Source of the DNA: Escherichia coli
GTDB taxonomy: Bacteria; Pseudomonadota; Gammaproteobacteria; Enterobacterales; Enterobacteriaceae
Assembly (NCBI RefSeq): GCF_024223415.1
Contig: NZ_CP100500.1
Strand: one strand, 5' to 3'
DNA length: 64,000 bases
The position numbers and the translations under genes are program-made. Shown here piece by piece: positions 32,417-33,180 of this stretch; positions within the stretch are counted from its first letter, which is position 1, and the number at the start of each line of letters is the position of its first letter. The notes under the pieces were generated by a model. The model was not told the DNA's origin. It saw only the letters and a program-made list of their open reading frames with translations, and did not search any database.

Positions 32417-32793
32417 GAAGCTGACCAGACAGTCGCCGCTTCGTCGTCGTCCTCTTCGGGGGAGACGGGCGGAGGGGAGGAAAGTCCGGGCTCCATAGGG
32501 CAGGGTGCCAGGTAACGCCTGGGGGGGAAACCCACGACCAGTGCAACAGAGAGCAAACCGCCGATGGCCCGCGCAAGCGGGATCAGGTAAGGGTGAAAGG
32601 GTGCGGTAAGAGCGCACCGCGCGGCTGGTAACAGTCCGTGGCACGGTAAACTCCACCCGGAGCAAGGCCAAATAGGGGTTCATAAGGTACGGCCCGTACT
32701 GAACCCGGGTAGGCTGCTTGAGCCAGTGAGCGATTGCTGGCCTAGATGAATGACTGTCCACGACAGAACCCGGCTTATCGGTCAGTTTCACCT
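32417..32793 (+). ncRNA. rnpB: RNase P RNA component (M1 RNA)
   Basis: 377-nt sequence GAAGCTGACCAGACAGTCGCCGCTTCG…GGTCAGTTTCACCT recognised as M1 RNA. Confidence 0.97.
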
Positions 32794-32935
32794 GATTTAC
32801 GTAAAAACCCGCTTCGGCGGGTTTTTGCTTTTGGAGGGGCAGAAAGATGAATGACTGTCCACGACGCTATACCCAAAATAAAGCGGCTTATCGGTCAGTT
32901 TCACCTGATGTACGTAATAAACCGTTCCGGCGGGT
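32744..32935 (+). repeat. Tandem direct repeats of the rnpB 3' end/terminator region
   Basis: Two copies starting AGATGAATGACTGTCCACGAC at 32744 and 32835; degenerate partial third copy near 33090-33140. Confidence 0.85.
32803..32830 (+). terminator. rnpB intrinsic terminator
   Basis: AAAACCCGC-TTCG-GCGGGTTTTTGCTTTT hairpin plus T-run. Confidence 0.85.
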
Positions 32936-32949
32936 TTCAGATTGTTGAG

Positions 32950-33090
32950 TGCGCTTTATTCATGCCGGATGCGGCGTGAACGCCTTAGCCTGCCTACAAA
33001 AGCACGCAAATTCAATATATTGCAGAGATGGCGTAGGCCTGATAAGCGTAGCGCATCAGGCATTTTTGTGGTTGCCATCAGTTTCAAACC
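32950..33090. repeat. REP/BIME elements
   Basis: GCCGGATGCGGCGTGAACGCCTTAGCCTGCCTAC and GTAGGCCTGATAAGCGTAGCGCATCAGGC inverted units. Confidence 0.8.
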
Positions 33091-33180
33091 CGCGTCGATA
33101 AGTTTTTGCTTTTGGTGCACAGGGTAAGATGCATGAATATCTACGGTATTAATAATAGACTTTGTAAGAACTTATTAAGT

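What the first reader, a model, noticed from the sequence alone, without database searches (positions are those of the whole stretch)
32744..33140. Tandem duplications of the rnpB 3' end and terminator, interleaved with BIME
The last ~50 nt of rnpB plus its terminator recur as direct repeats (copy 1 from 32744, copy 2 from 32835 with a degenerate terminator AAACCGTTCCGGCGGGTTTCAG, and a partial third copy near 33090-33140), with a REP/BIME pair in between. Such repeats near a stable RNA gene are potential recombination hotspots and coincide with the boundary of the AT-rich yhaBC islet.
Basis: partly seen in the sequence, partly recalled or inferred. Interest (0 to 1): 0.3.

Follow-up and report, generated by a model that had tools for sequence, protein, structure and literature searches.

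The report
Repeated rnpB tail-and-terminator units
Just after the E. coli RNase P RNA gene, its last ~50 bases and terminator are repeated in decayed copies split by a common REP/BIME element; the repeats are real and vary in number between strains, but the locus is long known and no function has been shown.

Summary
Window 32417-32793 is rnpB. Its 3' module, with terminator T1, recurs at 32845-32949. That copy shares an exact 21-mer and an exact 26-mer with the original, against a maximum of 12 nt in 500 shuffles. A third, partial copy lies at 33086-33145. A REP-linker-REP BIME (32963-33062) sits between copies 2 and 3.

- **Repeat unit.** It is not a plain copy. It carries a ~12-nt insertion and a changed P4 strand, which gives the 113-nt period.
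- **Terminators.** Only T1 is intact here (-19.4 kcal/mol). Copy 2 folds at -4.4 with no U tract, and copy 3 has no hairpin.
- **Copy number.** Across 5,422 E. coli genomes it runs from 1 to 9. K-12 has two more units than this window. O157:H7 and ST131-like strains have none.
- **Age.** The same pseudo-unit follows rnpB in Salmonella, Citrobacter, other Escherichia species and many unidentified, apparently enterobacterial, metagenome contigs. The array is therefore older than the AT-rich yhaBC insertion, which cuts its last unit.
- **Coding.** The unit ORFs are not conserved.

The best explanation is an old terminator-bearing tandem duplication, kept similar and resized by unequal recombination and gene conversion. 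It resembles tRNA-linked repeats. From memory, Reed and Altman described the K-12 version in 1983. Interest is low to moderate.

The parts
32417..32793 (+). rnpB, the RNase P RNA (M1 RNA) gene. The mature 3' end is ...UUUCACCU at 32793.
   Evidence: Rfam RF00010, 318.6 bits, full-length model match. Annotated as rnpB in the identical EC1515 record.
32744..32844 (+). Copy 1, the native 3' module (101 nt). It consists of box A 32744-32764, the native J2/4-P4 segment AGAACC 32765-32770, box B 32771-32796 (which includes the mature 3' end), T1, and the junction.
   Evidence: the repeat finder families D1-D3; sequence read; alignment.
32801..32832 (+). Terminator T1. GUAAAAACCCGC-UUCG-GCGGGUUUUUGC plus UUUU, an A-tract/U-tract hairpin that also folds on the minus strand (bidirectional).
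   Evidence: The core 36 nt folds at -19.4 kcal/mol. The 56-nt region folds at -22.4 on the + strand and -15.7 on the - strand, with GGGUUUUUAC following. It is named rnpB T1 in PMC3643576.
32833..32844 (+). Inter-unit junction GGAGGGGCAGAA. It looks like a Shine-Dalgarno sequence ahead of the ATG at 32847.
   Evidence: Sequence. The junction is the least conserved part of the unit across lineages (mean pairwise identity 0.36).
32845..32949 (+). Copy 2, the distal variant pseudo-unit. It consists of box A 32845-32865, insert GCTATACCCAAAATAAAG 32866-32883 (replacing AGAACC), box B 32884-32909, and a degenerate terminator at 32918-32941 (UAAACCGUUCCGGCGGGUUUCAG).
   Evidence: 81 of 105 columns identical to copy 1. 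The fold is -4.4 kcal/mol with no U tract. The same variant unit ends the arrays of K-12, strain 130119 and SOI121.
32963..32997 (+). REP 1 of the BIME: TGCCGGATGCGGCGTGAACGCCTTAGCCTGCCTAC.
   Evidence: Three further copies in the window at up to 3 mismatches, with 0 expected. Weak Rfam match to naRNA4, which from memory derives from REP elements. The hairpin folds at -11.7 kcal/mol.
32998..33032 (+). BIME linker with an IHF-like site, ATTCAATATATTG, at 33010-33022.
   Evidence: One mismatch to WATCAANNNNTTR. Rfam ES036/CssrF scores 32.7 bits, just under its gathering score of 37.6.
33033..33062 (-). REP 2 of the BIME, in inverted orientation. On the minus strand it reads TGCCTGATGCGCTACGCTTATCAGGCCTAC.
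   Evidence: The whole 126-nt BIME has full-length relatives in 5,425 of 5,426 genomes, with a median of 22 places per genome.
33086..33115 (+). Copy 3: a terminator remnant, AAACCCGCGTCGATAAGTTTTTGCTTTTGG. The 3' arm of the hairpin is destroyed and the U-rich tail is intact. A possible weak box B remnant lies at 33068-33085.
   Evidence: the repeat finder D2, 83% to T1. Collinear alignment scores 55 against 19 +/- 3 in shuffles. No hairpin forms (-0.8 kcal/mol).
33116..33147 (+). Decayed junction plus box A remnant (TGCACAGGGTAAGATGCATGAATATCTACGGT). This is the truncated start of a terminal unit and the last repeat-derived sequence before the AT-rich yhaBC DNA.
   Evidence: the repeat finder D3, 71%. 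The alignment continues through it. It matches ...GCAGTAAGATGAATGACTG junctions in other Escherichia species. It is present even in O157:H7 and ST131-like alleles that have no repeats.
33181..34368 (-). yhaC, a convergent AT-rich gene. Its 3' end faces the array.
   Evidence: A 395-aa ORF. Annotated as yhaC in the identical record. GC is 0.27-0.35.

Best explanation
This is the E. coli rnpB-linked repeat array. It is an old tandem duplication of a module made of the RNase P RNA 3' end, its RNase E trailer, a bidirectional intrinsic terminator and a junction.

The array expands, contracts and stays homogeneous through unequal homologous recombination or slippage and through gene conversion. Its distal units decay.

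In this strain the array is at its shortest BIME-containing state. It has the native module with the only working terminator (T1), one variant pseudo-unit with a ruined terminator, a BIME that replaced the front of the next unit, a terminator stump, and a box A stump cut by the yhaBC insertion.

Functionally, T1 ends rnpB transcription and probably also stops the convergent yhaC transcript. In alleles that keep intact units, those units act as back-up terminators. Here the extra copies are most likely near-neutral relics. The array's main consequence is to serve as a recombination substrate that produces length polymorphism.

Shown directly: the anatomy, the copy-number polymorphism, the antiquity, the terminator states and the lack of coding conservation. 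Inferred: the recombination and conversion mechanism, the back-up and bidirectional termination role, and the neutrality of the copies in this strain.
For: **Anatomy and significance.**

**Whole-unit length alleles.** The window differs from K-12 by exactly two 113-nt units, from SOI121 by three, and from strain 130119 by one 120-nt unit. MRY15-117 has one clean extra unit and no BIME. O157:H7 and TUM14697 have none.

**Population.** 13,959 unit matches in 5,422 genomes, 1-9 per genome, median 2. A spread sample of 60 genomes gave 16, 17, 7, 16, 3 and 1 genomes with 1 to 6 copies.

**Concerted evolution.** The tails and terminators of pseudo-units resemble the native tail of the same lineage more than those of other lineages. 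Ungapped identity is 0.66 within lineages and 0.49 between them, across 24 native-tail types. One unit has a native-like P4 strand restored.

**Edge decay.** Counting distinct sequences, terminators are intact in 38 of 40 native modules, 30 of 32 inner units, and only 33 of 51 last units.

**Terminators here.** T1 folds at -19.4 kcal/mol (-15.7 for the 56-nt T1 region on the minus strand), copy 2 at -4.4 and copy 3 at -0.8.

**Dispensability.** About a quarter of sampled E. coli genomes (16 of 60) and S. houtenae carry no pseudo-unit.

**No own promoter.** None was found in the array.

**Not coding.** Frame-shifting 1-nt indels occur in the insert. The ATG is replaced by ATA or GTG, disrupted to ACG, or missing in some lineages. 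C-termini are unrelated.
Against: - The ~18-nt insert that distinguishes pseudo-units from the native gene is clearly better conserved across lineages than the other unit-specific parts. Mean pairwise identity is 0.83 for the insert, against 0.36 for the junction, 0.58 for the tail and 0.68 for the hairpin. The search pattern did not constrain the insert. Pure neutrality does not predict this, and conversion from the native gene cannot explain it.
- Term-seq in K-12 reports a 3' end only at the mature M1 terminus and none at T1, T2 or T3. Use of the back-up terminators in vivo is therefore not demonstrated. Rapid processing and multi-mapping reads could hide such ends.
- A Rho termination region on the rnpB strand lies inside yhaC, at MG1655 3269111. 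Some transcription therefore passes the whole array even in K-12.
Confidence: 0.78

Rival explanations
1. The units are functional RNA modules like tRNA-linked repeats. Read-through of T1 would produce RNAs that each end in a copy of the M1 3' terminus. RNase E would cut these as it cuts pre-M1. The released pieces, or the read-through precursor itself, would act as a small RNA or as a decoy. They keep the 3' strands of P1 and P2 but lack a working P4 strand, so they could pair with the M1 5' end or titrate a binding partner.
For: - The architecture matches the stated hallmark of tRNA-linked repeats: a copy of the upstream stable RNA's 3' end in each unit, one to five units per locus, sitting between tandem terminators. 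The rrnA, rrnB and rrnD repeats yield sRNAs by read-through of T1 and proposed RNase E processing (PMC8144298).
- The pseudo-3'-end, including its private insert, is conserved across Escherichia, Salmonella, Citrobacter and many other, apparently enterobacterial, contigs.
- K-12 data show RNA on this strand beyond the array.
Against: - No covariation supports any structure: 0 of 18 predicted pairs show compensatory change.
- No Rfam family matches the unit.
- The units are absent from roughly a quarter of E. coli, including O157:H7 and ST131-like strains, and from S. houtenae.
- No 3' ends were called at T2 or T3.
- In this window the RNase E-type trailer is altered (GAUGU in place of GAUUU) and the unit lacks a terminator.
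- Tested tRNA-linked repeats have only modest phenotypes, and most have no known function.
Confidence: 0.12
2. Each unit encodes a small basic peptide. The units carry GGAGG-N9-ATG, 33-38 codons, and in K-12 a stop that overlaps the next start as ATGA. This would parallel the protamine-like tpr ORF in the tyrT repeats.
For: - The window ORF 32847-32948 encodes MNDCPRRYTQNKAAYRSVSPDVRNKPFRRVSDC, with GGAGG 9 nt upstream.
- K-12 units give 38-aa ORFs with ATGA overlaps.
- tpr is annotated inside the analogous tyrT repeat.
Against: - Insert lengths of 13, 17, 18 and 19 nt shift the frame between lineages with no compensation.
- The ATG is ATA in Citrobacter, GTG in L018, disrupted to ACG in L091 and absent in L093.
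- The Shine-Dalgarno-like junction is the least conserved segment (identity 0.36).
- C-termini are unrelated, and one 120-nt unit fuses two ORFs.
- The start codon and first codons are simply rnpB sequence.
Confidence: 0.03
3. The repeats are att-site scars. Integrative elements that target the 3' end of a stable RNA gene would have left duplicated gene ends, and yhaBC would be the remnant island.
For: - A duplicated 3' end of a stable RNA gene next to an AT-rich, strain-variable islet is the classic signature of an island.
- yhaBC is missing in relatives and degraded in ST131-like strains.
Against: - The copies are tandem next to the gene and do not flank yhaBC.
- No integrase is present in garD-tdcD.
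- No phage record carries a native or pseudo rnpB 3' fragment, apart from misfiled host DNA, and no viral contig does either.
- Arrays exist in lineages without yhaBC.
- The pseudo-unit lacks a functional P4 strand, so it could not have served as a replacement gene end.
Confidence: 0.02

Closest known systems
Repeats in the 3' flank of the E. coli K-12 M1 RNA gene. Reed and Altman 1983, PNAS 80:5359, 'Repeated sequences and open reading frames in the 3' flanking region of the gene for the RNA subunit of Escherichia coli ribonuclease P'. Cited from memory. The paper could not be retrieved.
   Same: It is the same locus and the same units. The MG1655 sequence fetched here shows three further units at a 113-nt period after rnpB-T1, then the same BIME and the same distal stump. 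The window is that array minus two internal units.
   Different: This strain has the shortest BIME-containing allele, with no intact second terminator. As far as I know, that paper does not cover the 1-9 copy range in the population, the presence of the pseudo-unit in Salmonella, Citrobacter and other, apparently enterobacterial, contigs, or the truncation by yhaBC. All three are shown here.
tRNA-linked repeats (TLRs): the tyrT 178-bp repeats with rttR and tpr, and the rrA, rrB and rrF sRNAs between rrn T1 and T2 (PMC8144298, which cites Egan and Landy 1978 and Rudd 1999).
   Same: - The units lie directly downstream of a stable RNA gene in its transcription unit.
- Each unit carries a copy of that gene's 3' end. 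TLRs carry 18-19 bp; here it is 26 nt plus a further 21 nt.
- One to several units occur per locus, associated with tandem terminators.
- Short basic ORFs are present.
- Function is largely unknown.
   Different: - The upstream gene is rnpB, not a tRNA or rRNA.
- There is no sequence similarity to the tyrT or rrnB repeats beyond a terminator-like hairpin.
- The copied segment is longer and interrupted by a private insert.
- Transcription and processing of the rnpB units have not been shown.
REP/BIME elements (bacterial interspersed mosaic elements; the IHF-site type is known as RIP or BIME-1, from memory).
   Same: Two ~30-35-nt imperfect palindromes lie in inverted orientation around a ~35-nt linker with an IHF-like site. 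The element is extragenic, sits between convergent genes, and belongs to a dispersed family.
   Different: Nothing unusual, apart from its position inside a repeat unit of the array. REP 1 has two changes in its 3' arm: AGCCTGCC, where the other copies in the window have ATCCGGCC.
Tandem and bidirectional intrinsic terminators after highly expressed stable RNA genes, for example rrnB T1-T2.
   Same: T1 is a GC hairpin flanked by an A tract and a U tract and folds on both strands. In most lineages the inner units keep the same hairpin.
   Different: In this window the second and third hairpins are degenerate, so there is no tandem terminator here.

Membership tests
rnpB 3'-flank repeat array of E. 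coli (K-12 type) | Lies immediately 3' of rnpB and is collinear with the K-12 array. | tested here: met
   The window region is identical to EC1515. It aligns to MG1655 with two whole 113-nt units missing.
rnpB 3'-flank repeat array of E. coli (K-12 type) | 113-nt period, with each unit holding a copy of the M1 3' end. | tested here: met
   The box B offset is 113 and the box A offset is 101, the difference being a 12-nt indel.
rnpB 3'-flank repeat array of E. coli (K-12 type) | Each repeat carries an intrinsic terminator. | tested here: not met
   In this window only T1 qualifies (-19.4 kcal/mol). Copy 2 folds at -4.4 with no U tract and copy 3 at -0.8. The same degenerate distal unit ends the K-12 array, so this is a property of the distal unit and does not exclude the locus.
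tRNA-linked repeats (TLR) | Located downstream of a tRNA or rRNA gene in its operon. | tested here: not met
   The upstream gene is rnpB. The definition is taken from PMC8144298.
tRNA-linked repeats (TLR) | 18-19 bp in each unit are identical to the 3' end of the upstream stable RNA gene. | tested here: met
   26 nt, including the mature 3' terminus, are identical in copy 2. The last 23 nt of M1 recur exactly three times in K-12.
tRNA-linked repeats (TLR) | One to five units per locus. | tested here: met
   1-9 unit matches per genome, median 2.
tRNA-linked repeats (TLR) | Sequence relatedness to other TLR loci. | tested here: not met
   blastn with word size 7 against the tyrT locus and the rrnB end finds only a 22-nt terminator-like match.
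tRNA-linked repeats (TLR) | [quoted passage not shown] | not testable with these tools
   Only indirect evidence exists. K-12 has RNA on this strand beyond the array, but no 3' ends were called at T2 or T3.
REP/BIME | Imperfect palindromic ~30-35-nt units of the GCC(G/T)GATG...CTAC type that form hairpins. | tested here: met
   Sequences. The hairpins fold at -11.7 and -12.9 kcal/mol.
REP/BIME | A pair in inverted orientation separated by a conserved linker, with an IHF site in the BIME-1/RIP type. | tested here: met
   REP 1 is on the + strand and REP 2 on the - strand. The linker holds ATTCAATATATTG, one mismatch to WATCAANNNNTTR. The assignment to the BIME-1/RIP subtype rests on memory.
REP/BIME | A dispersed, high-copy, extragenic family. 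| tested here: met
   Median of 22 places per genome, a lower bound. Full-length relatives occur in 5,425 of 5,426 genomes. Further copies lie in the window.
Island att-site duplication at a stable RNA gene | Direct repeats of the gene's 3' end flank an element that encodes an integrase, and attP carries the gene fragment. | tested here: not met
   The repeats are tandem. No integrase lies in garD-tdcD. No viral contig or genuine phage record carries the fragment.

The most novel reading that the evidence does not exclude
The pseudo-3'-end of rnpB keeps box A and box B, which hold the 3' strands of helices P1 and P2. It also carries a private ~18-nt insert and a disabled P4 strand. It may be a selectively maintained RNA element of the rnpB transcription unit across Enterobacteriaceae, as an rnpB counterpart of the tRNA-linked repeats. 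On read-through of T1 it would be released or exposed. It would then act on M1 RNA biogenesis, for example as a competitor for the M1 5' strand that marks read-through precursors for decay, or on another partner. This would explain why the insert is conserved (0.83) while junctions, tails and terminators drift (0.36-0.68).
Probability: 0.12. Interest if true: 0.55.

Novelty: already known. Interest (0 to 1): 0.22.

Why it matters
As it stands, the finding matters mainly for annotation and as a variable-number repeat marker next to an essential gene. It explains why the rnpB-yhaC spacer varies from 106 to more than 700 nt among E. coli strains. It shows where the yhaBC islet was inserted. It also warns that only the first terminator is functional in this strain.

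If the conserved pseudo-3'-end proved to be functional, it would extend the poorly understood tRNA-linked repeat phenomenon to RNase P RNA. It would also give a new handle on how cells deal with read-through precursors of a ribozyme.

Tried and rejected
- **Tandem Repeats Finder** found nothing. I rejected this as evidence against the repeat, because two diverged copies with a 12-nt indel fall below its score.
- **The promoter and terminator scan** did not call T1 on either strand. I used folding instead.
- **My first two terminator-scoring scripts** misclassified native T1. I discarded them in favour of an energy plus U-run rule.
- **Retrieving Reed and Altman 1983** failed four ways. The prior description is therefore cited from memory only. 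Two other literature searches were uninformative.
- **The coding hypothesis** was rejected on frame and start-codon inconsistency.
- **The att-site or prophage hypothesis** was rejected.
- **A conserved RNA structure** was not supported. RNAalifold found only invariant pairs and the terminator, with no compensatory changes. Rfam at permissive thresholds gave only REP-related and terminator-like weak hits. ARAGORN found nothing.
- **Homology to tRNA-linked repeat sequences** was not found.
- **The 28-mer genome scan** is biased towards exact matches. I did not use it as evidence of conservation. I relied instead on the blastn Salmonella hit and on the metagenome scan in which the insert was unconstrained.
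Full report
**1. What is there**

Window 32417-32793 (+) is rnpB, the RNase P RNA gene (Rfam RF00010, 318.6 bits, full-length). The region is 100% identical to E. coli EC1515. The gene order there is garPLRK, then rnpB, followed by the convergent yhaC and yhaB, then tdcR and tdcABCD.

The last 50 nt of rnpB plus its terminator form a module that recurs downstream. The 21-mer AGATGAATGACTGTCCACGAC ('box A') is exact at 32744 and 32845. The 26-mer CGGCTTATCGGTCAGTTTCACCTGAT ('box B', which includes the mature 3' end) is exact at 32771 and 32884.

The two offsets, 101 and 113, differ because the native AGAACC is replaced in copy 2 by the 18-nt GCTATACCCAAAATAAAG. With gaps, the copies share 81 of 105 columns.

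The repeat is far beyond chance:
- The longest exact repeat is 26 nt, against a maximum of 12 in 500 dinucleotide shuffles.
- There are 31 shared 11-mer pairs, against 0.05 expected.
- Only the diagonals at 101 and 113 stand out.

A third, partial copy at 33086-33145 is collinear with terminator, junction and next box A. Its score is 55, against 19 +/- 3 in shuffles.

Between copies 2 and 3 lies a BIME:
- REP 1 at 32963-32997.
- A 35-nt linker with an IHF-like site at 33010-33022.
- An inverted REP 2 at 33033-33062.

The BIME belongs to a family with a median of at least 22 places per E. coli genome. Its parts score weakly against Rfam naRNA4 and ES036.

Copy 2 proper begins at 32845.

**2. 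Terminators**

T1 (32801-32832) is a strong hairpin with an A tract before it and a U tract after it. The core 36 nt fold at -19.4 kcal/mol. The 56-nt T1 region folds at -22.4 kcal/mol on the + strand and -15.7 on the - strand, where a U run also follows. It can therefore plausibly stop both rnpB and the convergent yhaC transcript.

Copy 2's hairpin is reduced to 4 pairs (-4.4 kcal/mol) and its U tract reads UUUCAGAUUG. Copy 3 has lost the 3' arm of its hairpin altogether (-0.8 kcal/mol).

In this strain, then, the array adds no credible intrinsic terminator. The generic scan tool missed even T1, so its silence is uninformative.

**3. Variation among E. coli**

The rnpB-yhaC spacer comes in discrete alleles:

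| Strain | Spacer (nt) | Content |
|---|---|---|
| O157:H7 | 106 | T1, then directly the box A stump |
| MRY15-117 | 219 | one perfect extra unit, no BIME |
| this window / EC1515 | 387 | variant unit, BIME, stumps |
| 130119 | 507 | plus one 120-nt unit with a long-loop terminator |
| K-12 MG1655 | 613 | plus two 113-nt units |
| SOI121 | 726 | plus three units |

An ST131-like strain has no repeat, and its yhaBC is degraded.

A 113-nt unit query hits 5,422 of 5,426 genomes. It gives 13,959 places, 1-9 per genome, with a median of 2. A spread sample of 60 genomes gave 16, 17, 7, 16, 3 and 1 genomes with 1 to 6 copies. The window's class (native module plus variant unit) made up about a tenth of that sample.

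This is the behaviour expected of unequal crossing-over or slippage between units.

**4. The unit is old and is not a plain copy**

A blastn search pulled out Salmonella Kentucky chromosomal DNA that had been misfiled as a phage. It carries rnpB-T1 followed by one unit with the identical 18-nt insert. S. houtenae has a single copy.

An exact-pattern scan of species-representative genomes found the unit in E. whittamii, Escherichia sp. E1V33, a divergent 'E. coli', and a Citrobacter. That scan is biased towards exact matches.

I therefore scanned metagenome contigs with box A core and box B fixed and the insert left free (N{7,30}). This returned 89 loci. The inserts form one family, GCTAT(A/G)C(C/T)(C)AAAAGAA(A/C)G, 13-19 nt long. 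They sit downstream of native rnpB genes with at least 24 different 3'-tail and terminator types, which implies many lineages. These contigs carry no organism names. Calling them enterobacterial is an inference from their rnpB tails and REP sequences.

Aligned to the native gene, the pseudo-unit equals the native 3' end plus about 12 nt inserted after CCACGAC, plus a change in the 3' strand of helix P4. The native CCCGGCUU becomes AGCGGCUU or CGCGGCUU. The helix assignment rests on my knowledge of the M1 structure.

Within a lineage, the tails and terminators of pseudo-units track that lineage's native tail. Ungapped identity is 0.66 within lineages and 0.49 between them. One unit has regained the native P4 strand. 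These are signatures of gene conversion.

Counting distinct sequences, terminators are intact in 38 of 40 native modules, 30 of 32 inner units and only 33 of 51 last units. This is the edge decay typical of arrays under concerted evolution.

**5. Relation to yhaBC**

GC falls from 0.57 to 0.27 immediately after the array.

In other Escherichia species and in Salmonella there is no yhaBC. There the array abuts the tdc regulatory region.

In E. coli, the flank TGCACAGGGTAAGATG(C)AT(G)AATATCTACGG (33116-33147) is a decayed junction plus box A. It resembles the ...GCAGTAAGATGAATGACTG junctions of the outgroups. It is present even in alleles with no repeats.

No integrase is nearby. Neither the viral contig scans nor the phage-record search found a genuine phage sequence carrying a native or pseudo rnpB 3' fragment. 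An att-site origin is not supported.

**6. Function**

*Coding.* Each unit has an ORF. In the window it runs 32847-32948, 33 codons, with GGAGG 9 nt upstream. In K-12 the ORFs are 38 codons with ATGA overlaps. These ORFs are not conserved:
- Insert length changes shift the frame.
- The ATG is ATA or GTG, disrupted to ACG, or missing in several lineages.
- C-termini are unrelated.
- The Shine-Dalgarno-like junction is the least conserved segment.

*RNA structure.* RNAalifold finds only invariant pairs and the terminator, with no compensatory changes.

*Expression.* In K-12, Term-seq reports a 3' end only at the mature M1 terminus (3270216) and none at T1, T2 or T3. A Rho termination region on the rnpB strand inside yhaC (3269111; 2,111 reads upstream and 34 downstream) shows that some transcription crosses the whole array (PMC7815308).

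*Most likely reading.* The array is an ancient terminator-bearing duplication. In alleles with intact units it supplies redundant, bidirectional termination. Here it is a near-neutral relic and a recombination substrate.

*One unexplained observation.* The private insert is much better conserved across lineages (0.83) than the junction (0.36), tail (0.58) or hairpin (0.68). Neutrality plus conversion from the native gene does not explain this.

**7. Comparison with what is known**

From memory, this array was described for K-12 by Reed and Altman (PNAS 1983, 80:5359), including its 113-bp period and its ORFs. I could not retrieve that paper. The MG1655 sequence fetched here shows exactly such an array.

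The closest family documented with the tools is the tRNA-linked repeats. These have one to five units per locus downstream of tRNA or rRNA genes. Each unit ends in 18-19 bp identical to the upstream gene's 3' end. The rrnA, rrnB and rrnD members yield sRNAs by read-through of T1, and most have no known function (PMC8144298). The tyrT locus carries rttR and tpr.

The rnpB units share that architecture but not the sequence, and the upstream gene is different. They work like a TLR locus without being a listed member.

**8. Verdict**

It is already known in essence, so interest is low to moderate (0.22).

The most novel reading still open is that the conserved pseudo-3'-end is a functional RNA element of the rnpB unit across Enterobacteriaceae. 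I put its probability at about 0.12.

Noticed in passing
window 50610-50706; also 3622-3655 and 47532-47565: There is a second REP pair (BIME-like) and two single REP copies elsewhere in the window.
   Followed up: no
L012 (OR851195.1) and L013 (AGRM01000002.1): The record 'Salmonella phage S.Kent 1-2-1' (UNVERIFIED_ORG, 2.5 kb) is Salmonella chromosomal DNA. It runs from the rnpB 3' end through a pseudo-unit into the tdc regulatory region. The phage collection also holds a S. houtenae whole-genome contig. Both are misfiled host sequences.
   Followed up: partly
L009 (Citrobacter sp. Awk 4), about 60-310 nt after the start of native box A: A ~170-nt insertion with a long inverted repeat (GCTAACACCGTTAACTTAAGC ... 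GCTTAAGCTAACGGTGTTA) and its own terminator-like end sits between two pseudo-units. It could be a MITE or a structured RNA.
   Followed up: no
L069 and L091 (metagenome contigs), junction before box A: In this lineage the inter-unit junction is a short 9-nt tandem repeat, GTAGATGAT, present in two or three copies whose number differs between units.
   Followed up: no
MG1655 3269111 (- strand), which corresponds to roughly 560 nt inside yhaC, near window position 33740: Published DirectRNA-seq with and without bicyclomycin lists a Rho termination region on the rnpB strand, antisense to yhaC (2,111 reads upstream, 34 downstream). An antisense transcript therefore enters yhaC from the array side.
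   Followed up: partly
L007 (TUM14697, ST131-like) and L003 (strain 130119): yhaB and yhaC are reduced to pseudogene fragments and tdcR has an internal stop in the ST131-like strain. yhaC is frameshifted in strain 130119. The islet appears to be decaying in several lineages.
   Followed up: no
window 32926-33096: The 3' arm of copy 2's terminator (GCGGGTTTCAGATTGTTG) and the 5' arm of copy 3's terminator (CATCAGTTTCAAACCCGC) are 78% complementary. Together they bracket the BIME, and the 171-nt stretch folds at -62.9 kcal/mol. This probably follows from both arms deriving from palindromic terminators.
   Followed up: partly
L074, unit 2 (metagenome contig): One pseudo-unit has an insert ending in AACC, which restores a native-like P4 3' strand (AGAACCCGGCUU). 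It looks like a gene-conversion tract from the native rnpB.
   Followed up: no
window 32300-33400: The consensus terminator scan does not report rnpB T1 on either strand, although T1 is a strong hairpin with a U tract. An absence of calls from that tool should not be read as an absence of terminators.
   Followed up: yes
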